Shown one piece after another: positions 30,070-48,925 of a stretch of DNA of 64,000 nt. The notes under the pieces are model-generated. The model saw only the letters and a list, made by a program, of their open reading frames with translations, ran no database searches and was not told the DNA's origin. The position numbers and the translations under genes are program-made. The stretch's first letter is position 1; every line of letters starts with the position of its first letter. Source of the stretch: an uncultured Gammaproteobacteria bacterium (GTDB lineage Bacteria; Patescibacteriota; Microgenomatia; UBA10105; UBA927); assembly GCA_964573695.1 (NCBI GenBank), contig CAZNKB010000001.1, positions 64,565 through 128,564 on the forward strand, written 5' to 3'.

Positions 30070-30128
30070 GATTATATAAATAGACAATATTAATCTCTTA
30101 TTATCCGAGCACGTAATAAGCTTCACGC

Positions 30129-30488
30129 TTAATATCTTTGCCTCCACCCCGATCTTCCCGTTGTTCTTTCTAAAACACCCTCCACTTCCTCTTTATCATG
30201 TATATTATCAACACTTCCTAATACTATCTCATTATCCTCAGGATTAGCACCGGAAAACTGCACGATAATCCCGCGATTTCTCCTCGTTCCGATGACCGCG
30301 ACATAATGGCCGCGATAGTCGCGCTCTCGCCTGGGTATTGAACTCTCCCAAAAATGCGCGTTAGGGAGATTTTCTACTACCACGTGCTCAACCAACATAC
30401 ACCACGAGGCTGGACGATTTCTCGTGTACCGAAACCAGTCACCACGCTTTTTTTTGATCTGAGAGATGATTTCCTTTGGGGTAGGCAT
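30129..30488 (-). CDS. Hypothetical protein at the island boundary
   Basis: 119 aa of native GC composition. Its 3' end runs into the AT-rich island. Confidence 0.4.
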   Translation of the reverse strand: MPTPKEIISQIKKKRGDWFRYTRNRPASWCMLVEHVVVENLPNAHFWESSIPRRERDYRGHYVAVIGTRRNRGIIVQFSGANPEDNEIVLGSVDNIHDKEEVEGVLERTTGRSGWRQRY

Positions 30489-32111: not shown

Positions 32112-32164
32112 ACCACTTACCCCGCGGGTCAGTATAGCACGGATATGCTATACTCGATGCGCAG

Positions 32165-32404
32165 ATGAACGACATCATAACCGTCGAAGAGGCTGCCCGG
32201 TTTCTCCATAAGCACACCAGTACGATACGACGCTGGATCGAAACCAAAAAATTGAAGGCCAGACATCTCTCAGCTGGCGGACACGGCATCTATGCCATTT
32301 TACGAAGCGACTTATTAGAAGTAGCTATCTCGGGCACGCTAGAAGCGAAAGAAAAAACGAGTCATCCTAAAATTACGGCATTACAGCGCCAACTACCTCT
32401 TTGA
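32165..32404 (+). CDS. Excisionase-family (HTH_17) DNA-binding protein
   Basis: 79 aa. ITVEEAARFLHKHTSTIRRWIETKKLKARHL matches the MerR-like HTH_17. Confidence 0.55.
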   Translation: MNDIITVEEAARFLHKHTSTIRRWIETKKLKARHLSAGGHGIYAILRSDLLEVAISGTLEAKEKTSHPKITALQRQLPL

Positions 32405-32410
32405 TATCCT

Positions 32411-32611
32411 TTACGTTCCTGACTCGGGAGGTGAGGTAGGTGTCGGAGAAGCTGATTCTTCATTTGTTTCGGGGGAAGCGAACGGCTCAAAAAAATTTCC
32501 GTTTTTTCTCTCGACTGTCATATAGTAACCGACTGCGAAGATAAAACCGCCAACAAGAAAAGCGAGCACCGCCCACTGCCAGAGAGGACGTTTTGTAAAT
32601 TGTTCTTCCAT
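32411..32611 (-). CDS. Small membrane protein
   Basis: 66 aa with one TM and a Pro/Ser/Thr-rich tail. Confidence 0.3.
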   Translation of the reverse strand: MEEQFTKRPLWQWAVLAFLVGGFIFAVGYYMTVERKNGNFFEPFASPETNEESASPTPTSPPESGT

Positions 32612-32626
32612 ACGATACGTAGTATA

Positions 32627-34330
32627 TCACCAGCTTCCACCGCCGCCGCCACCGCCTCCACCACCGGAAGATCCGCCGGAAAATCCCGAAGAGTGACCGG
32701 TGGACGAATGTGCTGCTATCGAGGCAGCAAATGAACTACTCATGCCATGTCCCAGACTATGGGCAAATACGACGCTGTTAAATCTGCCCCCTGAGGTGGA
32801 CTCGTACCAATCCGGATTTTTTATCCCCAGAGATTTGAATCGAGCCGCCCAGATTTCCTCGACACCGAATGCCACAGCAAACGGGAGTAGTTTCTCAAAC
32901 ATCATTTGGTTTTTTGCCTGAAACGAAAGCTGTCGCTCTTGACTCGTCAGGAAATTACGAAGCGACCTGGCCATTGCTGCCGCTTCGGCGCCAAAAAGCG
33001 TTTTCCGTGGCATGTGCTGACCGAACATAAGGGAAACCAAAAACAAAATGGGATTTACAAACAGAAACGACACCACGGCAAGTGCGATATACCACCCGCG
33101 TAATGTGTTTGGGTTGCTCGGAAAAAACTTATCGGCGACGAGCGACTCATAGAGCATGCCCTTCACCTTTTCGAGCGTCCTGGTAAGGTCAATAGTCTTG
33201 ATACTCACTCGCTCTCCGGTCGCAAATACGCCGTCGAGGAGCTCACGTTCAAACGGCAATACGTGGACATCCCCTTTCCAATCTTTTGTTTTCTCCAAAT
33301 CAAACACGTTTTTTTGGGTTTCGATGATCTTAAGATACCCGCGGCGTGCGAGGTCGACAATCGACGCGTAAATATCCCGCAAATCAGCCCGCTCGTCAAC
33401 AAGCGTACCTGTTTCGGCCGGCGTGAGTTCCCTGTGATGCGGAGTTTTGGGCGGACTAAACCAGGCTTTTGCTTCTCCTGTGGCAGGCTTGGGATCCCTG
33501 CCTCCAATCCACCAAGCGCGGACAACGGCAATCGGAGCCACGACATACCAAAGTACGGATGCGATCGCCAACAACACCAATGTAATTTTACCGGCTAATG
33601 TATCAAAAAACGGGACTTGCTCCCTCGGCTCCAACACGGCGACCACACCTTTGGGAAATCCCACTACGATCGTAAGTCCCTCATTCATTGAGAGTGGTTT
33701 ACTGATGCGTACTGTTGCCGAACGCGGATCAATATGTTCGGTTTCACACTCTTTTTCTCTCTCACCTGCTTTTCCGGTAAAACAAGCGACGTGGATATCT
33801 TCGACAGGCACGTCTTTTGGCAATATCACGGTTACGGAAGCGTCCGAAATAGGCACCGGCCAACCGGTTCCCACCGCGTTCCAATAGAGCTCATCGTGGG
33901 ACGGGAAATACGTCAGGATACCCGAGGCAGTATAGGACAAATCATAAAGATGTTTGCCGGTTATTGTCTTATCGGGATCACCGATTTTCCATTGCAAATT
34001 ATCGCCTTGTGTGGCGGACTCAAACCGATACGGACTTCCCTTCCCGTCGGTAATCGTCACATCGGAAAAATCCATAACATAGGGCTTACCGGTATCATTT
34101 GTTTTGATGAAACTGATATCGCGGTAAATACCGTGGCGGGTAAGATCTCCGAAATCATAGGAAATGCGTTCATTCATTTTGGCAGTGCCGTCGGATTGAA
34201 GCGCTATCGAAACATCCAAGTGTTCGATGTGCTCGCTGCCTGCAAACGGATCGGCAGCAAACACCCGTGCTACCAGCGGGTTGACAGTGAGGAACGCAAT
34301 GACCAACAACAACCACATGATTCGTTTCAT
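32627..34330 (-). CDS. DUF2207-family membrane protein with C-terminal Gly-rich tail
   Basis: 567 aa with a signal peptide, an N-terminal extracytoplasmic domain (HGIYRDI), TM helices and a C-terminal GGSSGGGGGGGGGGSW tail typical of DUF2207. Confidence 0.6.
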   Translation of the reverse strand: MKRIMWLLLVIAFLTVNPLVARVFAADPFAGSEHIEHLDVSIALQSDGTAKMNERISYDFGDLTRHGIYRDISFIKTNDTGKPYVMDFSDVTITDGKGSPYRFESATQGDNLQWKIGDPDKTITGKHLYDLSYTASGILTYFPSHDELYWNAVGTGWPVPISDASVTVILPKDVPVEDIHVACFTGKAGEREKECETEHIDPRSATVRISKPLSMNEGLTIVVGFPKGVVAVLEPREQVPFFDTLAGKITLVLLAIASVLWYVVAPIAVVRAWWIGGRDPKPATGEAKAWFSPPKTPHHRELTPAETGTLVDERADLRDIYASIVDLARRGYLKIIETQKNVFDLEKTKDWKGDVHVLPFERELLDGVFATGERVSIKTIDLTRTLEKVKGMLYESLVADKFFPSNPNTLRGWYIALAVVSFLFVNPILFLVSLMFGQHMPRKTLFGAEAAAMARSLRNFLTSQERQLSFQAKNQMMFEKLLPFAVAFGVEEIWAARFKSLGIKNPDWYESTSGGRFNSVVFAHSLGHGMSSSFAASIAAHSSTGHSSGFSGGSSGGGGGGGGGGSW

Positions 34331-35311
34331 TTAGCGGAGGTACTTTGCGACATTGGCATTATGTTCATCCAATGTTTTAGCGTAATGCACCACCCCGGCG
34401 GGGTCGTGGAGATAGTACATATAGTCGGTTTTTTTAGGATACGCGGCCGCCCGCAGGGCAGCAAGCCCCGGGTTACTGATCGGCCCGGGCGGTAACCCCG
34501 GATTCATATACGTGTTATACACAGATTTTACATTTTTGTCGTCTTCGGAAAGCACTTTTTTCCACCAGGTTTTTTCCTGAGACTGATATCCCAATGCGTA
34601 CTGAAGCGTCGCATCCGCCTGCAGCGGCCACCCTGCCTCGAGTCGATTAAGGAGGATGCCCGCGATAATCGGCCGATCCTCATCCGTGCGACCTTCGCGC
34701 TCTACGATTGACGCCAGTATCACAACATCCTCAAGCGTCCTTTTTTGGGACTTTATATCCGCACGCATCTCGGGGGTCACTTTTTTATCGAATGCAGTTG
34801 TAAATATCGAGATAATCGCACCCGCCGTCGCATCCTGCGGAATAAGGTAGGTATCGGGAAACATATAGCCCATTTTGGCGCCTCTCAAAAATTCGCTCTC
34901 CGGCAAATCCAAATTTTTTGCCAGCGCTGTCGCGATTTCTTCATTCCGCCATCCTTCCAGGGTCGTAACCCAGATATCCTCAAATCCGTGCGTCAGCTCG
35001 CGGGCCAGCGACCTTGCATCCATGGTGCGGTTTAATCGGAATTCCCCGGCTTGCAGATTCCTCTCTATCCCCATGAGCTTGACCAAGACAAAGAAAGCGG
35101 TAGAACTCCGGATCAGGTTGTCCCCGGCGAGATTTGCTGCTATTGCCCGTACTCCGTCGCCCGCGTTTACGCGAAATGAAACAGGAGAAGTATCCTTGAG
35201 GTCTACGGCCCTTGTGCTATCGAACCACCACGCCAACGCCCCGCCTATGCCAAGGATCAAGACAAGCACCAATACCATGACTCTCGTGATGACCGTGTTA
35301 CTTGATTTCAT
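34331..35311 (-). CDS. mltG: Endolytic murein transglycosylase MltG (YceG-like)
   Basis: N-terminal TM and ILASIVEREG, NPGLPPGPISNPG motifs. The start at the Met at 35311 avoids an overlap with the upstream mini-ORF; the track start is 35383. Confidence 0.8.
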   Translation of the reverse strand: MKSSNTVITRVMVLVLVLILGIGGALAWWFDSTRAVDLKDTSPVSFRVNAGDGVRAIAANLAGDNLIRSSTAFFVLVKLMGIERNLQAGEFRLNRTMDARSLARELTHGFEDIWVTTLEGWRNEEIATALAKNLDLPESEFLRGAKMGYMFPDTYLIPQDATAGAIISIFTTAFDKKVTPEMRADIKSQKRTLEDVVILASIVEREGRTDEDRPIIAGILLNRLEAGWPLQADATLQYALGYQSQEKTWWKKVLSEDDKNVKSVYNTYMNPGLPPGPISNPGLAALRAAAYPKKTDYMYYLHDPAGVVHYAKTLDEHNANVAKYLR

Positions 35312-35489
35312 GAAGTAGCGCACGGCGGTATTTTTTCGCCGCGGGGTCATACATATATATACGTCCGCATGCACAATCCACACGCACCAGACCAGTACCT
35401 TCCTTTACCGGAAGGAACTTACCACACCCCACGCATTTTCCCTGCGAAAGGAGCCATGCTTGTACCGGACCCAACAAATTTTTGAACAT
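35298..35489 (-). CDS. Small zinc-ribbon-like protein (CxxC...CxC)
   Basis: 64 aa from the internal Met (MFKNLL...CVGCGKF...CACGRIY). It fits exactly between the phosphorylase stop and the mltG start. Confidence 0.3.
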   Translation of the reverse strand: MFKNLLGPVQAWLLSQGKCVGCGKFLPVKEGTGLVRVDCACGRIYMYDPAAKKYRRALLHEIK

Positions 35490-35491
35490 AG

Positions 35492-36751
35492 TTATTCCAG
35501 CGCGTACACAGGCATTGATTTCAATGTTTCCGCCGCTTCCTTCAAGCGCCATTTATCGGAACTGTAAATCGTAGCTAGTATATCACCTTTGTCCACCCGC
35601 TCTTCAAGTTTTCGATTCAAGTACATCCCTGCTTTTTTGTCGGTCGGGCACCCCAAAATTCGGCAAATGACGGTAATTTGCTGATTATTAATTCCCGATA
35701 TCATGCCATGTTTTGTCGCTTTGAGCTCATAGAAATCTTTGGCAGGTATGAGCCTGCTGCTTGTTACATCCGGGTGCCCCCCCTGTGCTTTGATAATTTC
35801 GCGCATCTTGGAAAGCGCCTTGCCGGAAGCCAGCAGTTCCCGCGCCACTTCCTCACCGTCCATATCCTTTTTTCCTGGAGTATCAGAAAAACATAAAGAT
35901 AATAATTTACCCGCAAGTCGAAGGGCTTTTGCTTCCAACGCAAGGGGGCGTTCCGGCGTTTGCTCCAATACTTCAAATACGTCGCGTGCCTCAAGTACCG
36001 GACCTATACCTCGACCTGCGTTTTGCCGCGTTTCGTTGATATCCACGACAACCTTAATTTTGAACCGTTTTCCAAGCATCATAAATTTCCGGGACATAAG
36101 CTCCGCATCTTTAAAATGCTGTATCTTCATCGTCGGTCCCACCGGTAAATCAAGGACGAGATGATTGGCTCCCGAGGCAATTTTTTTGGCCATGACGGAA
36201 ACGATGATTTTGTCATAGGATTCGAAGGCAAGAGGGCGCTCAACCTGAATAAGCGCATCGTCCGCAGGAGCCAGTCCTACGTGTCCGCCCCACACGATAC
36301 ACCCGCCGACTTTTTCCACGATTTTGGTGATCTGTGCCGTCGTAAAGGTAACGGGAGCCACGACTTCCATAGTATCTGCAGTTCCCGCAGGGGAGGTAAT
36401 AGCGCGTGTCGAGGTTTTGGGGATTTTGTATCCGGCTGCCGCGATAATAGGGACAACTATCATCGTCGTCCGTGTTCCAGCCACTCCTCCGGCAGAATGC
36501 TTGTCCGCCACAATCCCCTTAAATTTGAGTCTTGGACCGGTCGCCACCATTGCTTTTGTCAGCGAAAAAAGTTCTTCATCCGAAAAGCCTTCTTTGAACC
36601 CCGCTGCAGCAAAATAAGTCGTGAGGACCGGACTCAGTTTTTCGTTGGCGATCTCATCCATAATCGAGTAGATTTCGTCATAATTGAGCCGCTTACCGAC
36701 AAGTTTTTTTTTGATCGCGTCAACTGCTTTTTGTTGTGAATTGGCAGACAT
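35492..36751 (-). CDS. Thymidine/pyrimidine-nucleoside phosphorylase family protein (possible AMP phosphorylase)
   Basis: 419 aa with a DKHSAGGVAG phosphate-binding motif and a TP-family fold. Confidence 0.75.
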   Translation of the reverse strand: MSANSQQKAVDAIKKKLVGKRLNYDEIYSIMDEIANEKLSPVLTTYFAAAGFKEGFSDEELFSLTKAMVATGPRLKFKGIVADKHSAGGVAGTRTTMIVVPIIAAAGYKIPKTSTRAITSPAGTADTMEVVAPVTFTTAQITKIVEKVGGCIVWGGHVGLAPADDALIQVERPLAFESYDKIIVSVMAKKIASGANHLVLDLPVGPTMKIQHFKDAELMSRKFMMLGKRFKIKVVVDINETRQNAGRGIGPVLEARDVFEVLEQTPERPLALEAKALRLAGKLLSLCFSDTPGKKDMDGEEVARELLASGKALSKMREIIKAQGGHPDVTSSRLIPAKDFYELKATKHGMISGINNQQITVICRILGCPTDKKAGMYLNRKLEERVDKGDILATIYSSDKWRLKEAAETLKSMPVYALE

Positions 36752-36757
36752 ATTTGC

Positions 36758-37465
36758 TTATATCCTCACGAGCTTGGCTTTGACGTTTAACCGGTAAAGA
36801 TACGTTCCGGGAGGCACGCACGTTACCAGGGTGATATACGAGTCGTCAAACCGCTGTTCAAGCGGAGACAAATCCGTGGGTTCTACGACTACTTTGTCCG
36901 TCACGATATATTTATAGCTTAATCCATCGTAGGTAATATTGATATTCGCGCCGATTTTGATCGTCGGGAGAGTCGCAAATATTGTTTTATAATCCTTGGT
37001 CCCCCGAAAAAACTGCGGGAGAGTGGAGTGACCGAAAATAACCGTGTTTCCGTACTCACCGGGTAGCCCCGTACCTCCGTAATGAATAAGGCTTTTGCCT
37101 AAATCATCACCCGCGATGATGACGCTTGCGTCCGTTAACCCCAATGTCGGAATGGAGAGGGTATAACTATTGACGGGAGCGGATACCTTTTTTTGCGGAG
37201 ACGTCGGAAACCACGTATTGGGATCGGTTATATCCTTCTGCCCGGCAGCATAGGCTATCTGGCTTCCGGCATCCTTGCCACCCAAATCCGCTATCGGGCT
37301 TACTGTTTTTGCCAGTACTATCTGATCCACAAAAAAAAACGAAACAATGGGCCACATCGTCCACAAAATGATAAAAAACCCCAACGACATGAGGATATAC
37401 GAAACAACAACCGGTCGGGGAACCGGACGACGGGGCACCGCTTTTACATATCGGTACATTGCCAT
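36758..37465 (-). CDS. Sortase-family transpeptidase
   Basis: 235 aa with an N-terminal TM and a TLVTCVPPGT (TLxTC) catalytic Cys motif. Confidence 0.7.
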   Translation of the reverse strand: MAMYRYVKAVPRRPVPRPVVVSYILMSLGFFIILWTMWPIVSFFFVDQIVLAKTVSPIADLGGKDAGSQIAYAAGQKDITDPNTWFPTSPQKKVSAPVNSYTLSIPTLGLTDASVIIAGDDLGKSLIHYGGTGLPGEYGNTVIFGHSTLPQFFRGTKDYKTIFATLPTIKIGANINITYDGLSYKYIVTDKVVVEPTDLSPLEQRFDDSYITLVTCVPPGTYLYRLNVKAKLVRI

Positions 37466-37470
37466 ACCTA

Positions 37471-39882
37471 TTACTGTACCATGACGGTTACCGAGATGTT
37501 GCCGCTTTGTATGGGCAAACGGGATTTGGTCGGCGACAACGCAAATCGGAATTCTGCCCCGCTGACGCCTTTTGTCTCTTTGAGAATCTCAAGGGCAGTA
37601 TCCACGTCTTTACCGGCAAGCGCACGCTTGAGTCCGGCCTCATCGATGTGTGGCAGCGAAACGGCGGTCAATTTAGCAGTCAACGTAATAGTACCGTCCT
37701 TTTTCACGGTCACTCGAGAAACCGATACGTTCGTCTGCTCCGGCGCCAGGGAGTATCCTGCCGGCACCTTTGCTTCAACAAGCGTCGACAACGCGGCCTT
37801 GATATCACTGTCGGAAATACTCACCCCTGTCACTTTCACCGTCACTTTCCCGTGGAGCTCATTTGCTTCCTGATCGAGTTCCGCATCGAACACCTTTTCC
37901 GATACCTCAGTTTTGATCGTCTCGTCGATCAGCCTTTCACCGCCAGCCACGGCAAGCAGTTGCTGCTTGGCCTGTGTCACCAGATCTGTCGTCAGTGCTT
38001 TAACGAGTGCATCCTGATCCGCTCGCGATACGACCGTCACTTGCTTACTGGTCCCTCCGGTAAAGGCAGACTCATTGCGGGCTGATATTTGATTACCACT
38101 CATATTGGCAAAGGTAAACTCCGAACTTGCTCCCACATTACCGTTTGGACCTATATCGCGGGCGGTTACATTGGCGGCCGCCTTCCCGAACGTTATGGAG
38201 CCAATACTTTCGCTTGCCGATGCCACAGAAACATCGCTGTCGAGCGTAAATGCAATACCGCCTGTAGAAAGCACCGTACCTTTCGGCAATGTTTTGCCAC
38301 TGGTTACCTTGTTATAAATTGTCACTGTGCCCTTGGCAGGATCCCCCACGTTTTTTTTACCGGTAATGGCAATTGTTTTTTCTCCGCTTACGGACTGCTC
38401 TACTATCTTCCCCGGGATAATCTTGGTCGACGGATCTGCAGTAGTGGCCGATGTGTTGACCGTCACCGAGGTCGACTCATCGACGGATTGACTGGAAACC
38501 AATACGGTAACCATGACCTTTGGCAAGGCAAAGTAAAGTCCTCCCGCCACAAGGATAAAAAGGACAACGCCGATAATTACGGGAATTGTACCGCCCTTGA
38601 AACGCGGCATGTTCGACAACATACCCTTCACGGACCCAAATCCCGCGAACGAAAATGGGGGTAACTTGAATTTCGCGGGTAACGATATGGGTAACTTTTT
38701 GCCGGCAGACACAGGTGCTTTATGAGTCTGCGACGAGGTATGCTGATGCTCCAGCACGTCTTCATGACTAAACCCAAGGGCCTCCGGACTCACCACTTCC
38801 ACATTTGACAGTTCGTCATCTCCGCCCGTCATTTCAATAATTTGGGACTGCGTCTTTTCGGACTCATCGTCGCGCACCACTCCGTCCTCCGCAGTTTCTT
38901 CTTCGTCGTCTGGTGCGTCGCCTTGTGTGGTTGCTGCCTCATCCGTCTCTTCTTCCTCCGAAAATGCGCTTGACTCATCTTCCTCCTCTTCCGCTTCTTC
39001 TTCATCGATAACTTGAGTAGATGCCGTTGCGACAGCTGACTCCTGAGAGGTAGAGGGCATAGTAGGTTGAGCAACGGTCGAAACGCTTGCATCGGGTGAT
39101 TCCGTACGACTTTCACCGATTTCTTGAGACAACTCTGAAGCTCCCGCCAAAGAAATCGAGGTTAACAGTGTTTCGAGTGCAATACCTTCAATTTTGGGGA
39201 AATGCAGAAAATTCGCTCTCGTCGACCATGGATGCTTCAATAATTTTGAACGGACTTCCTCAAGTGTTGCCGTGTTGCCGCCATAGAGGAGTATGCGCGA
39301 GGGTAATACGTCACCGTCTTGGTGTTTTTTGAGAATCCCTTCAAGTGCAGCCGCCGGATCGTCATCGATGTCCATTGCGTCTTCGTGTGTCAGATTACCG
39401 ACGCGAAAAAGCGATATATGGGCACGCTTCCCTGAACATCCGAAAAGAATCACGCTGGGAGGAACGCCTTCGTCTTTTTTCAGTGAAAAAGCTATCGCCT
39501 GCGACAGGGGCACAAATCCGACCGGCGTAAGCTCAAGCATGACGGTAAGTTTCTTAAGGTGCGGGCGTATCGCCTCGAGGATATTGCCCTCGTGAGTCAG
39601 ATACGTGCCGGGCATGCCAAATACGGTTTTGGAGATTGCCTTCGCTACCCCTACCTTATCTTCGGCGGCAGAAAGCAGCCGATCCACTACCTGCGTGCGT
39701 GATTCCCACGTATCATCAGCCACCAATGCATGTGCAAAGCTGGAAATACGGGGCGTCTGTGAAGCGTCCAAGTGCCAGGTAGCGACGGCTGCGGCATCGG
39801 TATCGAGATAAAGCGAAAAAAAATAATTTTTCGCCTCTTCCTTCTTGGGCAATAAGTCGGTAAGCACGTGTGGAAGTTTCAT
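37471..39882 (-). CDS. Large bitopic membrane protein with an N-terminal actin-like (FtsA/PilM-like) ATPase-fold candidate, an acidic linker, one TM and a C-terminal extracytoplasmic beta-rich domain
   Basis: 803 aa. The N-terminus has phosphate-1-like YFFSLYLDTDAAAV and LLYGGNTA motifs. A poly-E linker (EEEAEEEEDE) follows, then a TM (IPVIIGVVLFILVAGGLYFALP), then about 330 aa rich in T/S/V/G. Confidence 0.45.
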   Translation of the reverse strand: MKLPHVLTDLLPKKEEAKNYFFSLYLDTDAAAVATWHLDASQTPRISSFAHALVADDTWESRTQVVDRLLSAAEDKVGVAKAISKTVFGMPGTYLTHEGNILEAIRPHLKKLTVMLELTPVGFVPLSQAIAFSLKKDEGVPPSVILFGCSGKRAHISLFRVGNLTHEDAMDIDDDPAAALEGILKKHQDGDVLPSRILLYGGNTATLEEVRSKLLKHPWSTRANFLHFPKIEGIALETLLTSISLAGASELSQEIGESRTESPDASVSTVAQPTMPSTSQESAVATASTQVIDEEEAEEEEDESSAFSEEEETDEAATTQGDAPDDEEETAEDGVVRDDESEKTQSQIIEMTGGDDELSNVEVVSPEALGFSHEDVLEHQHTSSQTHKAPVSAGKKLPISLPAKFKLPPFSFAGFGSVKGMLSNMPRFKGGTIPVIIGVVLFILVAGGLYFALPKVMVTVLVSSQSVDESTSVTVNTSATTADPSTKIIPGKIVEQSVSGEKTIAITGKKNVGDPAKGTVTIYNKVTSGKTLPKGTVLSTGGIAFTLDSDVSVASASESIGSITFGKAAANVTARDIGPNGNVGASSEFTFANMSGNQISARNESAFTGGTSKQVTVVSRADQDALVKALTTDLVTQAKQQLLAVAGGERLIDETIKTEVSEKVFDAELDQEANELHGKVTVKVTGVSISDSDIKAALSTLVEAKVPAGYSLAPEQTNVSVSRVTVKKDGTITLTAKLTAVSLPHIDEAGLKRALAGKDVDTALEILKETKGVSGAEFRFALSPTKSRLPIQSGNISVTVMVQ

Positions 39883-39888
39883 TCAGTT

Positions 39889-41805
39889 TTAGGTAAGCGA
39901 TGCGTAAATTCTTCGCACTCCTGCGCTACTTGCTTCCTCTTTTAGTATTGTAAAGTGACCCAACCCACCTGTAAAGCTGACGTGCGGCCCTCCGCAAAAT
40001 TCAGCGGAAAAATAATCACCTTTCCCTGCGCGTTCAGGATCAATTCCCTCAGAAAGTCCCACGAAATACACGCTGACACGATCAGGGTATTTGGCGCCGA
40101 ACTCCATTTGCGCACCGATCTTTTCCGCACTCTCCTTGGACATCTCTACCCGTGTTACCGGAAGATTCTGCTGTATTGCATGGTTTACGAGATCACTGAC
40201 TTTTTCTAATTCCTGAGAAGTAAATTTCTTTGAAAAGCTCACATCAATACGGAGACGCTCCGCTGTAATATTGCTTCCCCGCTGTTTGATCGTCGGATCG
40301 ACACATTTCTGAAGTGATGCCAAGAGCAGGTGATGCGCCGTGTGGAGGTCTGTCGTGGCTTTACTATGGTCCGCAAGACCACCCTTGAACATACCGGCAG
40401 CAGCAGTACGGGAAAGCTCCTGATGTTTACGAAATTCTCTTTGGAATTCCTCGCGATCCACCTGCTGACCTTTCTCAAGTGCCAATTCGTACGTAAGCTC
40501 CCACGGGAATCCGTAACTTTGCAGCAGATCAAATGCAACGGTACCGGTGATCGTGTCATGTTTTCCCAACTGTACCAGGCCGACTTTCAGCACTTTTTCA
40601 AAACGGGTGATCTCTTCTTTGAGAATCTGCCCCCTATCCAAAAATTCCTGGCTGTCCGGTTCAAAATACACGCCGCGATAAATCGCCCCTACCTCCTTGT
40701 AGACACTCATTCCTAACTCCGCTTTTGATCCGTTCCCCCCGAGCTGATGCATTTTTACGACCGCTCTGCGGATGAGACGGCGCAACACATATCCCTGCTG
40801 CTTATTCCCAGGAAACAATCCTTCGTTGATCATAAACACCGCGGCCTTGAGGTGATCTGCTATCACGCGCATCGCCTGGGTTTCTTTTATATCCCTGCCG
40901 TATGTAACGCCGGAAAACGTTTCGAGGTTGGTAATAATTCCTGCAAACAAATCAGTCCGGAAAACATCCGGATCATCTGCTACCGCCGCGGTCATCCGTT
41001 CCAATCCTCCGCCAAAATCCACATTTTTTTGCGACAACTCCTTTAGACTCCCGTCTTCCATTTTCTGATATTGCATAAACACCGAATTGGCGATTTCCAT
41101 AAATCTGCCGCAATCACAGTTTGGATGACACGCCTCCTGCTTGTACAAAGATTTTTCATGAAGTCCCAGTTCTTTTCCGAAATCAAAAAATACCTCACTG
41201 TCCGGCCCTCCCGGTTCTCCCGGCGGCATTTTTTCCGGCTCGCCCGACCTACTCCACCAGTTTTTACGGGCACTGTACGTAAATATGCGGGCATCCATGG
41301 GTGAGACGGATTCCCAAACCTTCGCCTCTATGCCGACTTTTTGGAATATTTGTTTCCATATTTCTATAGACTCTTCATCCTTAGGAATCCCTGAACTACC
41401 TTCTCTGGCAGAGCCAGATCCGGCTTCGCCGGAAAATACGCTTACATATAGGCGTTTGGGGTCAAGTCCCAACTCGCGAGTCAAAAAATCGAATATCCAT
41501 GGCAGCTGCTCTTTTTTGAAATAATCCCCAAGACTCCAGTTGCCAAGCATTTCAAAAAACGTGGTGTGGCGGTTGTCCCCGACCTCTTCGATATCCTGAG
41601 ACCGAAATGATTTCTGACTGTCGACAAGCCGAGTTCCCGCCGGATGCGATTGCCCCAAGAGATAAGGAACCAGAGGTTGCATACCGGAACTCGTAAATAA
41701 CGTAGTCGGGTCATTAAGCGGCACGATAGGCGCCGAGGGTATCTCTGCATGCCCCAACGCTTTGAAGTACTCTATATATTTACGCCTGACATCAGCCGAC
41801 TGCAT
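39889..41805 (-). CDS. alaS: Alanine--tRNA ligase (short form lacking the C-Ala domain)
   Basis: 638 aa with the class II catalytic core (HTTFFEMLGNWSLGDYFK) and an editing domain HxxxH...CGGPH. It ends right after the editing domain. Confidence 0.9.
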   Translation of the reverse strand: MQSADVRRKYIEYFKALGHAEIPSAPIVPLNDPTTLFTSSGMQPLVPYLLGQSHPAGTRLVDSQKSFRSQDIEEVGDNRHTTFFEMLGNWSLGDYFKKEQLPWIFDFLTRELGLDPKRLYVSVFSGEAGSGSAREGSSGIPKDEESIEIWKQIFQKVGIEAKVWESVSPMDARIFTYSARKNWWSRSGEPEKMPPGEPGGPDSEVFFDFGKELGLHEKSLYKQEACHPNCDCGRFMEIANSVFMQYQKMEDGSLKELSQKNVDFGGGLERMTAAVADDPDVFRTDLFAGIITNLETFSGVTYGRDIKETQAMRVIADHLKAAVFMINEGLFPGNKQQGYVLRRLIRRAVVKMHQLGGNGSKAELGMSVYKEVGAIYRGVYFEPDSQEFLDRGQILKEEITRFEKVLKVGLVQLGKHDTITGTVAFDLLQSYGFPWELTYELALEKGQQVDREEFQREFRKHQELSRTAAAGMFKGGLADHSKATTDLHTAHHLLLASLQKCVDPTIKQRGSNITAERLRIDVSFSKKFTSQELEKVSDLVNHAIQQNLPVTRVEMSKESAEKIGAQMEFGAKYPDRVSVYFVGLSEGIDPERAGKGDYFSAEFCGGPHVSFTGGLGHFTILKEEASSAGVRRIYASLT

Positions 41806-41887: not shown

Positions 41888-42697
41888 TTGATTGTTTCTA
41901 TGAAACGGCTGCCGATTCTCTATATCATCCTTATAATCTTCTTTGGTTTACCCATAATCCTCTGGGCAGTCGGCACACAGAACACGGACATCCGCAGCAG
42001 AGCAGATCTCTCCACTACTCCGACAATCACGCCTTCGGCAACTCCTCCGATCACTCCCTCCATTACCCCGACAGCAACTCTGACACCTACTCTTACGCCA
42101 ACTCCGACAAACTCGCCGCCCCGATGTAGTGGATTATCGGTAAGCCCTGGTGCGGGATCCAAACCGCTGACCGTCAACTTCAGCTGTGCGGGGTATGATG
42201 CCGACAATGACATCACGGCAGCCGAATTTGGATTTGGCGGAAGCGAAAAACGCCTGGTAGAAAAACCAGCCGGAACATTTGGATCTATCACAACGTCCTA
42301 TACCTATACACAGGCAGGAACCTATAACGTCACCTGCAGGATACGAGACAACAACCAGGTATTTTCCAATTATCCGGATTACTGCAAATATACAGTTGTC
42401 GTATCCGAAAATGTATTGACGCCGACCCCGCGAAGGACACCTATTCCAACCAAAGCGCCGACCACCACAGAGGACGATCTCATCATATTTACTGGTGCAG
42501 CCCCGACTGCGACCCCGACACTCACCATTAGTCCAGCCACAACAGCCACTCCCACGCCTACGGAAAAGGGTTGGCTTCAATTCGATCGTAGCTGGTGGTC
42601 AAACGAAAAAATCGCCCAGCTTACCATGATGGTTATCATAAGCGGACTTACCATAGTTGTCGCGCTCCTTCTCCACGGATTTTTCGACAAACGCTGA
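41888..42697 (+). CDS. PKD-domain surface protein with Pro/Thr-rich linkers and a C-terminal membrane anchor
   Basis: 269 aa with a signal/TM, (TPxxTP)n linkers, a PKD-like core (LTVNFSCAGYDADNDI...GTYNVTCRIRDNN) and a C-terminal TM. Confidence 0.55.
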   Translation: MIVSMKRLPILYIILIIFFGLPIILWAVGTQNTDIRSRADLSTTPTITPSATPPITPSITPTATLTPTLTPTPTNSPPRCSGLSVSPGAGSKPLTVNFSCAGYDADNDITAAEFGFGGSEKRLVEKPAGTFGSITTSYTYTQAGTYNVTCRIRDNNQVFSNYPDYCKYTVVVSENVLTPTPRRTPIPTKAPTTTEDDLIIFTGAAPTATPTLTISPATTATPTPTEKGWLQFDRSWWSNEKIAQLTMMVIISGLTIVVALLLHGFFDKR

Positions 42698-42722
42698 CAC
42701 GAAGAGGTACAATATCGCCTAC

Positions 42723-43067
42723 ATGCAGATTGTCAAACAAAAAAAGGCTCGAAGGGTTGATGCATCCCCCACCACGTCGGTTGAAGAGTATGTTATGTCG
42801 GAGTCCCATATCAGCGGAGCTACCGCAATCGTATATGGCAGATATCCTGAAAAAGGATTCGCCGTAAATACGGTAAGCCACGAATTAGCTCTGGTATTGA
42901 GCGGCAACGGATATGTCGGGACCAAAAGAAAAAAGACAGCCATAGAACTCGGTGATTGCATCCTGATCAAGCCAAATGAAAAATATTATTGGGACGGCCA
43001 TATGGCAATATTTATCGTGTGTACACCGACATGGAAACAAAAACAGCATATCATCGCTGACCGTTAG
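42723..43067 (+). CDS. Cupin-domain protein
   Basis: About 114 aa from the Met at 42723. The ORF track begins at 42657, overlapping the previous gene. Cupin beta-barrel motifs are weak. Confidence 0.4.
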   Translation: MQIVKQKKARRVDASPTTSVEEYVMSESHISGATAIVYGRYPEKGFAVNTVSHELALVLSGNGYVGTKRKKTAIELGDCILIKPNEKYYWDGHMAIFIVCTPTWKQKQHIIADR

Positions 43068-43076
43068 CACATCATC

Positions 43077-44045
43077 ATGGACCCAAAAACACGCATAGAT
43101 CCCCGCTTCTCACTTGAGGAGGTGGTTCGAGAATCTGCGAAGGAATTTATACTAGGATCCGTCAGTTCGTTTTCTATTATCCAAACCGGGTATCAGGAAT
43201 GCAATCTGGATGTCACCGCGACAAACGGACGCTTCGTCCTAAAAATATTTGCATCCGACAAGTCCAAATCACGTGTTCAGGACGTCGTCTGGGGATATGC
43301 CCGGTTTCAGAAACTTGGCGTTCCGCTACCCAATCTCCGTCACACTCTGACGGGTAAAGCCATAATGGAATACCACAAGGACACGCACCGCGTATTCATC
43401 GCAGCCTTCGACTATATCGCAGGCAAACCACTCACACATACATCGGCCACTGACGACGATATCGTTATACTCACCAGGGCAATGGCGGGTATTCATGCCA
43501 CTGTCAAAACGATAGATCGGTATTATGACACACTCGGAATAACCAACATAGTTACCGAGTTTGAAAAAAACCGTGATGCCCTGTTTACCGATGAATCCAC
43601 CCAACTCCTCCCTATCATCGCCAAATTCCGCAAGCTCGATCTCACGCGATTTCACCATAGCGTCATCCATGGCACCATGGAAAAAGAAAACGTATTGAAA
43701 AATACCGAAGGTAAACTCTACTTATTGGATCTAGGATGCATGGACTATAACGCCTCGATTCTCGACATAGCGACGTTTATTGCGAATTTTTCCGTCTACC
43801 TTCCTCAAGTCAAACGTAATCATCTTATCCATCTGGTGCTCACTACTTATGGAGCGTTATCACCACTTGTTCAGGAGGAAATTGCTGCACTTCCCACGTT
43901 AATCCGGGCGCAATTTGCAGCGTATATCATCGGCATGACCTACAACATGCGCAAAAACCATGACATGAGCAAACAAACCCAAGTCTGGCTCGACAGAGGG
44001 TGGGACGGACTACGGGCATATGCCGATATAAAATCGCTTATCTAA
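43077..44045 (+). CDS. Phosphotransferase-family protein (APH/choline-kinase-like kinase fold)
   Basis: 322 aa with a Brenner motif HGTMEKENVL and a DLG motif, as in aminoglycoside or homoserine kinase-like enzymes. Confidence 0.6.
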   Translation: MDPKTRIDPRFSLEEVVRESAKEFILGSVSSFSIIQTGYQECNLDVTATNGRFVLKIFASDKSKSRVQDVVWGYARFQKLGVPLPNLRHTLTGKAIMEYHKDTHRVFIAAFDYIAGKPLTHTSATDDDIVILTRAMAGIHATVKTIDRYYDTLGITNIVTEFEKNRDALFTDESTQLLPIIAKFRKLDLTRFHHSVIHGTMEKENVLKNTEGKLYLLDLGCMDYNASILDIATFIANFSVYLPQVKRNHLIHLVLTTYGALSPLVQEEIAALPTLIRAQFAAYIIGMTYNMRKNHDMSKQTQVWLDRGWDGLRAYADIKSLI

Positions 44046-44055
44046 TCTCAAGGAC

Positions 44056-44922
44056 ATGATCGCTTATCTTTTCGGACTGATCGCATATTTAGGCTGGGGA
44101 TCCGGAGACGTATTCGGAACATTTGCAACCCGCAAAGTCGGCCCGTATATCACCACCTTCTGGGCATTCGCGTTTGCGGCCATACTCGGAAGCTTCTATG
44201 TTCCGTTTGCCCTACGTGATCTTCACGCGCTAACGCCTGACCTCCTTGTTCTGAACCTGCTGCTGGGCGTCATGTATGTGGGCGGCAACCTCACGTTTAA
44301 CGAAGCGCTGCGCCTTTCCAGTGCGCCGATCGTGGGTACGATCGGAGGATCATTTGCTGCGCTTACTGTGCTGCTTTCCTATCTGTTTCTCGGAGAAACT
44401 ATTTCCGTGACACGGATAGTCCTTATCTGTATTGTTTTTTTGGGTGTATTTATAACGACCACTTCGCACAGCCAAAAAAAAGATGCCGGGTTCTCCAAAG
44501 GAATCATTCTGGCGCTTATCAGTCTTATCGTGTGGGGCATTTATTTTACGTTCAATAAAATCCTCATGAGTCGTATGGGTTGGTTCTGGCCTAATTACAT
44601 ACCGATGCTTTTGTTCCCGCTCATCGGAATCTACATGAAATGGAAACATATTGCATTTATACTCCCCAAACGTGATGTAGCGGTTCCGCTTTTTTTCAAT
44701 GCGCTAATGCTGCGGGGCGGAGATGTTGCGTTTAATGTCGGGGCGAGCATGGGACTGACCGCAACTGTGGCTCCTTTGGGGGGGGCGTATCCCACGCTGT
44801 TTGCGGTGTTATCGTATTTTGTCTTCCGGAATCCGCTCAACAAAAAACAAGTAGCAGGCATCATCATTGCATTAGGCGGGTTAGTTGCGTTAGGATTTGC
44901 AGGGAGCTCTCTCTCGTTATGA
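44056..44922 (+). CDS. EamA/DMT-family transporter (paralog 1)
   Basis: 288 aa with 10 TM helices and duplicated EamA halves. Confidence 0.7.
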   Translation: MIAYLFGLIAYLGWGSGDVFGTFATRKVGPYITTFWAFAFAAILGSFYVPFALRDLHALTPDLLVLNLLLGVMYVGGNLTFNEALRLSSAPIVGTIGGSFAALTVLLSYLFLGETISVTRIVLICIVFLGVFITTTSHSQKKDAGFSKGIILALISLIVWGIYFTFNKILMSRMGWFWPNYIPMLLFPLIGIYMKWKHIAFILPKRDVAVPLFFNALMLRGGDVAFNVGASMGLTATVAPLGGAYPTLFAVLSYFVFRNPLNKKQVAGIIIALGGLVALGFAGSSLSL

Positions 44923-45245
44923 ATAGTGCGATACTAGTAATGGTTTCCTGCGCTGACAGTGGCCAAGCCGAACGGATCGGTGAACTTCTGCTCAAAAAAA
45001 AGCTAGCCGCATGTGTTCAGGTAATACACTCAGTCGAATCCGTATTTCTTTGGCCTCCCCGGAAAAACCAACTGGATTATGCCACCGAAGCATTGCTGCT
45101 TATAAAAACCCTGGACGCCAAATGGATCTCGCTCGAAAAAACGATTATCAGCGCCCATTCGTACGAAAATCCGGAAATAATTGCCCTCCCCATATTACAC
45201 ATAACCAAAAAATACCTCGCCTGGCTCACAAGCGAACTCTCGTAA
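44919..45245 (+). CDS. cutA: Divalent-cation tolerance protein CutA
   Basis: 108 aa. Motifs KLAACVQV, LLLIKT and ENPEIIALPI match CutA1. Confidence 0.75.
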   Translation: MNSAILVMVSCADSGQAERIGELLLKKKLAACVQVIHSVESVFLWPPRKNQLDYATEALLLIKTLDAKWISLEKTIISAHSYENPEIIALPILHITKKYLAWLTSELS

Positions 45246-45278
45246 TTTACTCGCTGTAGACGTATACTGTCACTAGAT

Positions 45279-46127: not shown

Positions 46128-46153
46128 CACGTGACGGAACAATCCTATATAAT
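46124..46153 (+). promoter_or_regulatory. Candidate promoter for the Ldh_2 gene
   Basis: ATGACA at 46124-46129, an 18-nt spacer and TATAAT at 46148-46153. An AAGGAGG RBS sits at 46166-46172 and the ATG at 46177. Confidence 0.35.
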
Positions 46154-46176
46154 GAACCCATTCCCAAGGAGGCAAC

Positions 46177-48921: not shown

Positions 48922-48925
48922 ACGC

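What the first reader, a model, noticed from the sequence alone, without database searches (positions are those of the whole stretch)
32627..41805. Tightly packed envelope operon: alaS, 803-aa actin-like/TM/extracellular protein, sortase, nucleoside phosphorylase, zinc-ribbon mini-ORF, MltG and DUF2207
Nine minus-strand genes have spacings of 0-10 nt. The 803-aa protein combines a cytoplasmic actin-fold-like N-domain (FtsA/PilM-like motifs), a poly-Glu linker, one TM and a large extracytoplasmic beta-rich domain. It is immediately followed by a sortase and a murein transglycosylase. This looks like a cell-surface assembly or division-associated module. The large protein has no family I can name.
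Basis: partly seen in the sequence, partly recalled or inferred. Interest (0 to 1): 0.5.

Follow-up and report, generated by a model that had tools for sequence, protein, structure and literature searches.

The report
Membrane pseudo-actin protein paired with sortase
The 803-residue gene encodes an undescribed membrane protein of Microgenomates (CPR) bacteria with an actin-shaped cytoplasmic domain that has lost its ATP-binding motifs and an outer domain remotely related to phage baseplate protein J; it always sits next to a sortase, so it is probably that enzyme's transmembrane partner, but its function is untested.

Summary
Seven co-directional minus-strand genes, not nine, fill 32627-41805. 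Their spacings are 6, 5, 6, 2, -14 and 0 nt, and a terminator-like hairpin follows the last gene.

The 803-aa protein has five parts:
- an acidic disordered linker;
- a conserved "LGF...D" linear motif;
- one TM helix;

By sequence the N-domain family is isolated. It has about 1,385 clusters, and nearly all of the 150 listed hits are 650-850 aa with the match at the N-terminus. Named members come from Candidatus Gottesmanbacteria and Daviesbacteria.

The order AlaRS-X-sortase-...-MltG holds in every locus long enough to show it. In Daviesbacteria the order is AlaRS-X-sortase-RuvX-MltG. X and sortase therefore look like a pair sitting inside an alaS-ruvX-mltG string. The phosphorylase belongs to AMP/RuBisCO nucleotide salvage.

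Best reading: a nucleotide-independent, GspL/PilM-PilN-like transmembrane adaptor that works with the sortase. The structure is well supported and the function is inferred. It is not a phage baseplate protein, not an FtsA or PilM family member, and not a canonical sortase substrate.

The parts
39889..41805 (-). Alanyl-tRNA synthetase, short form (638 aa); first gene of the co-directional string
   Evidence: PF01411 at 4e-106 and tRNA_SAD. It lies upstream of X in every locus long enough to show it.
37471..39882 (-). X: the 803-aa bitopic membrane protein (whole ORF including stop codon)
   Evidence: ORF listing. There are 289 and 287 homologues, and 501. Most listed hits align over the full length. 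The query itself hits no Pfam, NCBIfam or PHROG family.
39109..39837 (-). X residues 16-258: cytoplasmic minimal ASKHA/actin-fold core (two bbbababa halves), with nucleotide-binding motifs not conserved
38806..39108 (-). X residues 259-359: acidic, poorly conserved, length-variable disordered linker
   Evidence: Column conservation is 0.15-0.31. Linker length ranges 5-135 aa with median 49, and the median acidic fraction is 0.34.
38749..38805 (-). X residues 360-378: conserved linear motif NVxVVxPExLGFxxxDVLE inside the linker
   Evidence: G370 is 96% conserved, F371 97% and D375 81% across 333 sequences. G370, F371 and D375 are invariant in alignment A1.
38524..38589 (-). X residues 432-453: single transmembrane helix (N-in, C-out)
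   Evidence: The hydrophobic stretch TIPVIIGVVLFILVAGGLYFAL is preceded by R and K residues. AF2 models a helix at model residues 4-23.
38029..38520 (-). X residues 455-618: extracytoplasmic Baseplate_J-like beta-barrel domain
37474..38028 (-). X residues 619-803: long helix plus repeated alpha/beta (SIMPL/BP26-like) distal ectodomains; contains the conserved LP(790)xxxxNI loop and ends without a sorting signal
36758..37465 (-). Membrane-anchored sortase (235 aa); obligate downstream neighbour of X
   Evidence: PF04203 scores 69.8 bits. The TLVTC motif, a His (GHS) and an Arg are visible in the translation. It is below every class cut-off. It lies downstream of X in all 58 loci that contain both, with a median gap of about 34 nt.
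35492..36751 (-). Archaeal-type thymidine/AMP phosphorylase; a metabolic passenger in the string
   Evidence: NF003338 scores 479 bits and TIGR03327 scores 444 bits. It is absent in L003, L020, L033 and L052. It sits next to an e2b2-RuBisCO fusion in L064.
35298..35489 (-). 63-aa CxxC...CxC zinc-ribbon protein that overlaps the MltG start by 14 nt
   Evidence: Alignment A4 shows 65-86% identity with invariant CVGCG and CxCGR. A homologue is present in L064. It is found in 54 loci. It hits no family.
34331..35311 (-). MltG/YceG endolytic transglycosylase (start taken at the Met that matches homologue lengths)
   Evidence: PF02618 at 7.9e-77. Gene lengths of 328-341 aa in homologous loci.
32627..34330 (-). 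DUF2207 membrane protein with a Gly-rich C-terminal tail; last gene of the string
   Evidence: PF09972 and PF20990. It is present in 24 loci.
32561..32577 (-). Terminator-like hairpin with a T-run about 50 nt after the DUF2207 stop codon
   Evidence: Consensus scan only.

Best explanation
X is a bitopic membrane adaptor found so far only in Microgenomates.

**Shown.**
- A cytoplasmic minimal actin/ASKHA core lacks conserved ATP-binding motifs and lacks the 1C and 2B partner-binding inserts.
- It is joined to one TM helix by a variable acidic disordered linker that carries a nearly invariant 'LGF...D' motif.
- The TM helix leads to an ectodomain built from a Baseplate_J-like beta-barrel and SIMPL-like alpha/beta domains.
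- The gene is always followed by a membrane-anchored sortase.
- In Daviesbacteria-type loci the two genes lie between alaS and ruvX-mltG.

**Inferred.**
- X works without nucleotide hydrolysis as a transmembrane scaffold, in the manner of GspL or the PilM-PilN pair.
- Its ectodomain holds, positions or regulates the neighbouring sortase, or what that sortase assembles on the wall.
- The pseudo-actin domain and the GF motif dock onto a cytoplasmic partner. This would tie surface-protein anchoring to a site or state defined inside the cell.
- AlaRS, the phosphorylase and probably MltG and DUF2207 are co-transcribed neighbours rather than parts of the same machine.
For: **Fold**
- The N-domain model has pLDDT 87.5 and two RNase-H-like halves.
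- Foldseek gives probability 1.00 to EutJ, PilM and FtsA.

**Pseudo-ATPase**
- The phosphate-1 Asp is present in only 48% of 333 sequences, with no Gly.
- Phosphate-2 has no Asp and no GGG.
- The adenosine glycines are 68% and 40% conserved.

**Architecture is fixed**
- An exhaustive HMMER search found 1,385 clusters.
- Nearly all of the top 150 are 650-850 aa with the match at residues 1-260.
- The family edge is sharp: 1,201 hits at E <= 1e-10 against 1,385 at E <= 1e-3.

**Ectodomain**
- Pfam Baseplate_J is hit by 26 of 40 members.
- The profile aligns to diffocin TRI-2.

**Pairing with sortase**
- X is followed by sortase in all 58 loci holding both, with a median gap of about 34 nt.
- The two genes overlap by 4 nt in L063.
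- The pairing persists from Gottesmanbacteria to Daviesbacteria while other neighbours change (RuvX, RuBisCO, phosphorylase, DUF2207).
- Pairwise distances for the X N-domain and sortase give the highest correlation among the cluster genes, r 0.89 and partial r 0.82. This evidence is weak.

**Context from papers**
- Sortase is near-ubiquitous in Microgenomates (PMC6744442).
- A sortase-linked membrane partner has a precedent in SafA-SrtA of Actinobacteria (PMC9282373).
Against:
- No sortase substrate with an LPXTG-type signal was found in the window or in about 0.9 Mb of related loci.
- The X-sortase pair lies within a long, stable housekeeping string. Adjacency could therefore reflect co-inheritance rather than shared function.
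- The mirror-tree margin is small: 0.89 against 0.70-0.85 for the other pairs.
- The ectodomain fold has no known link to sortases.
- The cytoplasmic partner is unknown.
Confidence: 0.4

Rival explanations
1. Division or elongation adaptor. X is an FtsA-like membrane tether that links FtsZ or MreB filaments to wall remodelling by MltG. Sortase would be a bystander.
Against: - The FtsA-defining 1C subdomain, the 2B FtsZ-binding subdomain, the ATP motifs and the amphipathic C-terminal helix are all missing.
- No FtsA or SHS2 Pfam hit was found.
- alaS-ruvX-mltG is, by my own recollection, linked in many bacteria without X, so these neighbours predate X.
- In this window an 8.4-kb plus-strand block separates FtsK, the RodZ-like gene and YtxH from AlaRS.
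- The one complete Microgenomates genome I read about encodes MreBCD and PilM separately (PMC7143001).
Confidence: 0.2
2. Surface-exposed adhesin or host-interaction protein. The ectodomain is the business end and binds host or wall ligands in these probably episymbiotic cells. The cytoplasmic domain is only an anchor or signalling stub.
For: X is the fastest-evolving gene of the string, with median identity 43% against 56-74% for its neighbours. The ectodomain is large, and its barrel is a domain type that phages use in host-contacting baseplates. CPR-enriched membrane families are thought to serve cell-cell interaction (PMC6744442).
Against: - Most of the divergence lies in the linker.
- The ectodomain is actually the best-conserved part, with column conservation 0.57-0.84 and many invariant residues. 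That is unlike a diversifying adhesin.
- The cytoplasmic domain and GF motif are also strongly conserved, which argues for an intracellular function.
Confidence: 0.15
3. A GspL/PilM-PilN-type platform component of a pilus or secretion machine. The pseudo-actin domain would dock a PilB or GspE-type ATPase and the ectodomain would contact the filament base.
For: The architecture matches GspL: a nucleotide-free actin-like domain, one TM helix and an outer domain. PilM is among the best structural matches. One member gives a weak PilN hit at E 0.034. Type IV pili are prominent in CPR (PMC6744442).
Against: - No pilus or secretion gene lies next to X in any of about 60 loci.
- There is no GspL or PilM Pfam hit.
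- The ectodomain is not ferredoxin-like.
- The one complete Microgenomates genome I read about already has a canonical PilM in its pilus locus (PMC7143001).
Confidence: 0.12
4. Phage-derived baseplate protein or prophage remnant, as the database name 'baseplate J/gp47 family protein' implies.
For: There are weak PF04865 hits and structural matches to baseplate J and wedge proteins. NCBI uses this name for some members.
Against: - Only a barrel of about 130-160 residues matches.
- No PHROG family is hit.
- tblastn against 50,697 phage genomes finds nothing.
- No relative is found in IMG/VR.
- The context is a conserved housekeeping string with no tail, sheath or tube genes.
- GC content is the same as the surroundings.
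Confidence: 0.03

Closest known systems
GspL/EpsL of type II secretion, and the split PilM-PilN pair of type IV pili
   Same: Both are bitopic inner-membrane scaffolds. Each has a cytoplasmic actin-like domain that in GspL does not bind nucleotide (my own knowledge), one TM helix and an outer domain. PilM is among the best structural matches.
   Different: There is no sequence relationship. X lacks the extra subdomain that GspL and PilM use for partner binding. Its outer domain is a Baseplate_J-like barrel plus SIMPL-like domains rather than a ferredoxin-like fold. It is never encoded next to pilus or secretion genes; it is always next to a sortase.
FtsA
   Different: X has no 1C or 2B subdomain and no conserved ATP motifs. 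It has a TM helix plus a 350-aa ectodomain instead of an amphipathic helix. It is not adjacent to ftsZ in the window.
Baseplate J / gp47 / wedge-2 proteins of contractile tails (PF04865)
   Same: The remote homology to the beta-barrel domain is probably real and includes the GGT(S/D) motif.
   Different: X is a cellular membrane protein in a housekeeping context. It has no partner baseplate genes and no detectable sequence match to phage genomes or PHROGs. Only one domain is shared.
SafA-SrtA of Actinobacteria (a sortase-linked membrane partner)
   Same: In both cases a conserved membrane protein is genetically linked to a housekeeping sortase. According to its authors, SafA binds SrtA through an exoplasmic motif (PMC9282373).
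   Different: SafA is a small protein with no actin-fold or baseplate-like domain. No homology exists between the two, and the analogy is purely by gene linkage.

Membership tests
ASKHA / actin-like ATPase superfamily (fold level) | Two RNase-H-like bbbababa subdomains in tandem | tested here: met
ASKHA / actin-like ATPase superfamily (fold level) | Conserved phosphate-1 (DxG), phosphate-2 (DxGGG) and adenosine (GG) nucleotide-binding motifs | tested here: not met
   Across 333 sequences, D27 is 48% conserved and no Gly follows. The phosphate-2 hairpin has no Asp and no GGG. G201 is 68% and G202 is 40% conserved. Motif positions were assigned from secondary structure, not from a superposition.
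FtsA | 1C (SHS2) subdomain and 2B subdomain | tested here: not met
   The core of about 240 residues has no insert at either position. No FtsA or SHS2_FTSA Pfam hit appears in the query or in 50 members.
FtsA | C-terminal amphipathic membrane-targeting helix and linkage to ftsZ or the dcw cluster | tested here: not met
   X has a TM helix plus an ectodomain instead. No FtsZ family hit was found among the 40 window ORFs scanned against Pfam or among the genes listed for related loci.
FtsA | Binds the FtsZ C-terminal peptide | not testable with these tools
PilM / GspL | Sequence membership (Pfam PilM_2, GspL or T2SSL models) | tested here: not met
   No such hit was found. The N-domain profile finds no PDB chain at a significant E-value; the best is 0.37 and is unrelated.
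PilM / GspL | Architecture: cytoplasmic actin-like domain, one TM helix, outer domain | tested here: met
   This concerns how it may work, not family membership.
PilM / GspL | Encoded with pilus or secretion genes (pilN/O/B/C or gspE/M) | tested here: not met
   None is present in the flanks of about 60 loci.
Baseplate_J (PF04865) | Pfam model hit at or above the gathering score (21.1 bits) | tested here: inconclusive
   The query itself gives no hit. Of 40 members, 26 hit at E <= 0.1, best 1.5e-6. Distant members score 17.9-21.4 bits and cover only model positions about 18-113 of 255.
Baseplate_J (PF04865) | Structural match to the baseplate J / wedge-2 barrel | tested here: met
Baseplate_J (PF04865) | Phage, contractile-injection or T6SS gene context | tested here: not met
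Sortase substrates (cell-wall sorting signal) | C-terminal LPXTG-type motif followed by a hydrophobic helix and a basic tail | tested here: not met
   X ends 0-1 residues after its last beta-strand in 320 of 334 sequences. The conserved LP(790)xxxxNI has no Thr-Gly, no following TM helix and no basic tail.
Sortase (gene 36758-37465) | Sortase domain with a His, the TLxTC Cys and an Arg | tested here: met
   PF04203 scores 69.8 bits against a 26.6 cut-off. GHS, ITLVTC and YRLNV can be read in the translation. No class A-F model reaches its cut-off, so the class is unassigned.

The most novel reading that the evidence does not exclude
X oligomerises through its Baseplate_J-like barrel and SIMPL-like domains into a ring or wedge-like platform that spans the membrane. 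Phage wedge proteins and BP26 both form rings (my own recollection). The pseudo-actin domains would form the cytoplasmic face. Together with the sortase, this would be a previously unknown trans-envelope assembly station of Microgenomates, a cellular 'baseplate' on which a sortase-built surface structure is assembled or anchored for contact with host cells.
Probability: 0.12. Interest if true: 0.75.

Novelty: new variant of a known kind. Interest (0 to 1): 0.5.

Why it matters
Microgenomates are a large uncultivated part of the Candidate Phyla Radiation, and their cell envelopes are almost unstudied. Sortase is near-universal in them (PMC6744442), yet nothing is known about what it does there.

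This work gives a concrete, conserved partner candidate: a membrane protein that joins a nucleotide-free actin fold inside the cell to a baseplate-like domain outside. That makes the question testable by co-folding, pull-downs, localisation and phylogenetic profiling.

It also adds a case of an actin-fold domain reduced to a bare scaffold, and a cellular, non-phage use of the Baseplate_J barrel. Finally, it flags the database name 'baseplate J/gp47 family protein' as misleading for these genes.

Tried and rejected
- **N-domain derived from RuvX.** X sits where ruvX lies in other bacteria, and one member gave PF03652 at E 0.011. Rejected because RuvX is present as a separate gene right after X-sortase in L063 and L064, and the fold is a full two-lobed ASKHA.
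- **Maf_N hit** on residues 366-378 (18 bits, cut-off 27). This is a chance match of the acidic GF motif.
- **Weak PilN, SpaA and other single-member Pfam hits**. They are not reproducible across members.
- **X as a sortase substrate.** It has no sorting signal.
- **PKD protein (41900-42697) as a sortase substrate.** It has a C-terminal TM helix and a basic tail, but its conserved pre-TM sequence is WWSNEKIAQ, with no LPXTG-like motif.
- **Phage origin.** All three tests were negative.
- **RNA elements or tRNAs** in the string or in the 515-nt gap. None was found.
- **Promoter scan.** It was uninformative: 14 found against 13.9 expected.
- **Literature.** No paper describing this family was found.
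- **AFDB50 fold search.** The library was unavailable.
- **Mirror-tree co-evolution test.** It ran but is only weakly discriminating.


Full report
**1. What is in the sequence**

The region 32627-41805 holds seven co-directional ORFs on the minus strand. Pfam and NCBIfam identify six of them.

| Gene | Window coordinates | Evidence |
|---|---|---|
| AlaRS (638 aa) | 39889-41805 | PF01411 4e-106, tRNA_SAD |
| X (803 aa) | 37471-39882 | no family hit |
| Sortase | 36758-37465 | PF04203, 69.8 bits |
| Thymidine/AMP phosphorylase | 35492-36751 | NF003338, 479 bits, above its 434-bit cut-off |
| Zn-ribbon ORF (63 aa) | 35298-35489 | no family hit |
| MltG/YceG | 34331-35311 | PF02618, 259 bits |
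| DUF2207 | 32627-34330 | PF09972 and PF20990 |

- I chose start codons that reproduce the gene lengths called in homologous loci: 63 aa for the small ORF and about 328 aa for MltG. The spacings are then 6, 5, 6, 2, -14 and 0 nt.
- A terminator-like hairpin (32577-32561, minus strand) follows the last stop codon.
PGA_cap and a peroxiredoxin lie beyond a 515-nt gap.
- There are no tRNAs and no Rfam matches.
- GC content is the same as in the surrounding sequence.

**2. Organism**

- Homologues and related loci carry the names Candidatus Gottesmanbacteria, Patescibacteria group, one 'Woesebacteria' and, for distant members, Candidatus Daviesbacteria and 'Microgenomates group'.
- The window is therefore from a Microgenomates (CPR) bacterium, most likely Gottesmanbacteria.
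- Many TPA MAG titles read 'uncultured Gammaproteobacteria'. They carry the same CPR-type locus, so they look like placeholder labels.

**3. Anatomy of the 803-aa protein (X)**

I aligned 120 homologues to the query and later extended the set to 333. The alignments show five segments.

- **N-domain, residues about 16-258.** It is well conserved.
- **Linker, residues 259-359.** It is acidic, poorly conserved and variable in length: 5-135 aa, median 49, median Asp+Glu fraction 0.34.
- **Linear motif, residues 360-378 (NVxVVxPExLGFxxxDVLE).** G370 is 96% conserved, F371 97% and D375 81%.
- **TM helix, residues 432-453.** It is preceded by basic residues, so the topology is N-in, C-out.
- **Ectodomain, residues 455-803.** This is the best-conserved part, with column conservation 0.57-0.84 and many invariant residues.

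The first residues (M1, K2, P4) are also at least 90% conserved.

**4. The N-domain**

- AlphaFold2 with a 25-sequence alignment gave a confident model, pLDDT 87.5 and pTM 0.83.
- Its secondary structure is the textbook actin/ASKHA pattern: two consecutive bbbababa (RNase-H-like) halves. There is no insert where the 1B/1C or 2B subdomains of actin, FtsA or PilM would sit.
- Foldseek agrees on the superfamily with probability 1.00. Its top hits are EutJ, PPX/GppA, PilM and FtsA, with TM-scores up to 0.61.
- The fold is therefore certain, but the subfamily is not.
- By sequence the domain is isolated:
  - It gives no Pfam or NCBIfam hit.
  - Its profile finds no PDB chain.
  - An exhaustive HMMER search of 1.84 billion representatives found 1,385 clusters at E <= 1e-3, of which 1,201 are at E <= 1e-10. 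This is a sharp edge, not a tail running into the huge FtsA, PilM or Hsp70 families.
  - Nearly all of the 150 listed hits are 650-850 aa long with the match at residues 1-260.
- The nucleotide-binding motifs are not conserved:
  - The phosphate-1 Asp is present in 48% of sequences and is never followed by Gly.
  - The phosphate-2 hairpin has neither Asp nor GGG.
  - The adenosine glycines are 68% and 40% conserved.
- I assigned these positions from the predicted secondary structure, not from a superposition. A coordinate-level check is still needed.
- Conclusion: a pseudo-ATPase actin core, most plausibly a protein-binding module.

**5. The ectodomain**

- The AF2 model has pLDDT 85.5. Its pTM of 0.55 suggests that the relative domain orientations are uncertain.
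- It shows the TM helix, a beta-barrel (query residues about 455-618), a long helix and then repeated alpha/beta units.
- Pfam Baseplate_J (PF04865) is hit by 26 of 40 family members, best E 1.5e-6. The query itself gives no hit.
- The family profile aligns to diffocin TRI-2 (CD1371, 8v3w_E), including the GGT(S/D) motif.
- Nothing else links X to phages:
  - No PHROG family is hit.
  - tblastn against 50,697 phage genomes finds nothing.
  - No relative is found in IMG/VR.
  - No tail genes lie nearby.
- The NCBI name 'baseplate J/gp47 family protein' given to some members is therefore a domain-level resemblance, not a function.

**6. Gene neighbourhood**

- In 57 species-level genomes plus five metagenome loci, the order AlaRS, X, sortase, (phosphorylase), Zn-ribbon, MltG holds wherever the contig is long enough.
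- X is followed by sortase in all 58 loci that contain both. The median gap is about 34 nt, and three loci have insertions of about 1-1.6 kb.
- The phosphorylase is missing in L003, L020, L033 and L052. DUF2207 is present in 24 loci.
- In the ancestral arrangement FtsK, a RodZ-like HTH_25 protein, a small ORF and YtxH lie directly upstream of AlaRS. In the window's sublineage an 8.4-kb plus-strand block (PKD protein, APH, EamA transporters, CutA1, Ldh_2, DUF2079; 41888-50326) has been inserted between them.
- The Daviesbacteria-type loci are the most informative:
  - L063 reads AlaRS, X, sortase (4-nt overlap with X), RuvX, YceG.
  - L064 reads AlaRS, X, sortase, RuvX, an e2b2(IF-2B)-RuBisCO fusion, phosphorylase, a 69-aa Zn-ribbon, YceG.
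- From my own knowledge, not tested here, alaS-ruvX-mltG is a widespread neighbourhood. Examples are M. tuberculosis Rv2555c-Rv2553c and the B. subtilis alaS...yrrK...yrrL region.
- Two conclusions follow. X and sortase look like a pair sitting inside that older string. The phosphorylase belongs with the CPR AMP/RuBisCO nucleotide-salvage route, not with the envelope.
- X is the fastest-evolving gene in the string. Median identity to the window protein is 43%, against 62% for AlaRS, 56% for sortase, 74% for the phosphorylase, 70% for the Zn-ribbon and 62% for MltG. Much of this comes from the linker.

**7. Is X a sortase substrate, and are substrates nearby?**

- X ends 0-1 residues after its last beta-strand in 320 of 334 sequences. 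It has no LPXTG, no C-terminal TM helix and no basic tail.
- A conserved loop, (R)LP(790, 99%)xxxxN(88%)I(96%), lies in a lower-confidence stretch just before the last strand. It has the Leu-Pro of a sorting motif and nothing else. I record it only as a lead, possibly a pseudo-substrate.
- I scanned the window and about 0.9 Mb of related loci for proteins with a C-terminal TM helix and a basic tail. The only recurrent non-transporter candidate is the PKD protein, which is transcribed divergently from alaS. Its conserved pre-TM sequence is WWSNEKIAQ, not a sortase motif.
- The sortase has the His, the TLVTC Cys and the Arg. It is below the cut-off of every NCBIfam class model. Its nearest solved relatives are class C, D and E enzymes at E 3e-8 or weaker.

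**8. How it most likely works**

*Shown:*
- the architecture;
- loss of the conserved ATP motifs;
- the fixed domain combination;
- the invariable sortase neighbour.

*Inferred:*
- X is a nucleotide-independent transmembrane adaptor in the style of GspL or PilM-PilN.
- Its ectodomain acts with the co-translated, membrane-anchored sortase, by positioning it, stabilising it, regulating it, or supporting what it assembles.
- The pseudo-actin core and the invariant GF motif bind a cytoplasmic partner.

*Supporting context:*
- A precedent for a conserved membrane partner of a housekeeping sortase is SafA-SrtA in Actinobacteria (PMC9282373).
- Sortase is near-ubiquitous in Microgenomates, and 35 Microgenomates-enriched families are mostly hypothetical proteins, 14 of them predicted to be membrane-localised (PMC6744442).
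- A mirror-tree test on 41 loci put the X N-domain and sortase as the best-correlated pair (r 0.89; partial r 0.82 with AlaRS as control). The margin over other pairs (0.70-0.85) is small, so I treat it as weak.

I put about 0.4 on this reading. The rivals are:

| Rival | Confidence |
|---|---|
| Division or elongation tether | 0.2 |
| Surface adhesin | 0.15 |
| Pilus or secretion platform | 0.12 |
| Phage remnant | 0.03 |

**9. Comparison with known families and novelty**

- X works like GspL or PilM-PilN in architecture, but it fails their membership tests on sequence, ectodomain fold and gene context.
- It fails FtsA membership: no 1C or 2B subdomain, no ATP motifs, no amphipathic helix and no ftsZ linkage.
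- It shares one remote domain with Baseplate_J.
- I found no paper describing the family.
- I classify it as a new variant of a known kind: a bitopic actin-fold scaffold with an unprecedented ectodomain and an unprecedented sortase linkage.
- Interest is moderate (0.5). It is a concrete entry point into CPR envelope biology and an unusual reuse of two well-known folds, but the function is still inferred.

**10. Limits**

- The phyletic range beyond Gottesmanbacteria and Daviesbacteria is unknown, because only the top-ranked hits are listed.
- Operon status rests on spacing and a consensus terminator only.

Noticed in passing
window 35298-35489 (-); L001:14695-14886, L003:11186-11353, L004:12109-12300, L005:12290-12481, L064:14776-14985: A 63-aa CxxC...CxC zinc-ribbon protein (MFKN..QAWLLSQGKCVGCGK...CxCGRxYMYD...RRA.L.E.K) matches no Pfam or NCBIfam family. 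It is 46-94% identical across 54 loci. Its stop codon overlaps the MltG start by the same 14 nt in the window and in L001, L003 and L004. This suggests translational coupling to MltG and possibly a MltG-related role.
   Followed up: partly
window 26603-30147 (-): A low-GC island (33-37% against about 48%) encodes an AlwI-type restriction endonuclease (PF09491, 3.7e-52) and two D12-class N6-adenine methyltransferases. It looks like a horizontally acquired type IIS restriction-modification system, sitting just downstream of the peroxiredoxin gene.
   Followed up: partly
window 35492-36751 (-); L064:11372-14751: The 'nucleoside phosphorylase' is the archaeal thymidine/AMP-phosphorylase type, but it starts at about position 86 of the 502-position model, so the N-terminal domain is missing. 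In L064 its homologue sits next to a fused IF-2B(e2b2)-RuBisCO gene, which is the CPR AMP-salvage pathway. No RuBisCO gene was seen among the window ORFs that were scanned.
   Followed up: partly
window 41888-50326 (+): An 8.4-kb block on the opposite strand splits the otherwise conserved FtsK, RodZ-like, YtxH, AlaRS string in this sublineage. It encodes a PKD-domain surface protein with Pro/Thr-rich linkers and a C-terminal anchor, an APH-like kinase, several EamA transporters, CutA1, Ldh_2 and DUF2079.
   Followed up: partly
window 39889-41805 (-): AlaRS is short, 638 aa here and 575-625 aa in relatives. It covers only positions 1-449 of the 552-position catalytic model plus the SAD domain, so the C-terminal C-Ala region seems to be missing.
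   Followed up: no
window 32112-32626: A 515-nt stretch between DUF2207 and PGA_cap has no convincing gene, tRNA or Rfam match. Its length varies from about 200 to 1,200 nt in relatives. It contains only short ORFs of 66 aa or less and terminator-like hairpins.
   Followed up: partly
window 32627-34330 (-), C-terminus: The DUF2207 protein ends in a long Gly/Ser tail (SGFSGGSSGGGGGGGGGGSW). It is the last gene of the string and is present in only about 40% of related loci.
   Followed up: no
L009, L011-L013, L018-L022 and many others (record titles): Many TPA MAG records titled 'uncultured Gammaproteobacteria bacterium' carry the same Gottesmanbacteria-type locus, with the CPR-style short AlaRS, X and sortase. 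These titles look like mislabels or placeholders.
   Followed up: no
window 39838-39882 (-), X residues 1-15: The extreme N-terminus of X (MKLPD..., with M1, K2 and P4 at least 90% conserved) is conserved although AF2 gives it low confidence (pLDDT below 50). It may be a second short linear motif besides the GF motif.
   Followed up: no
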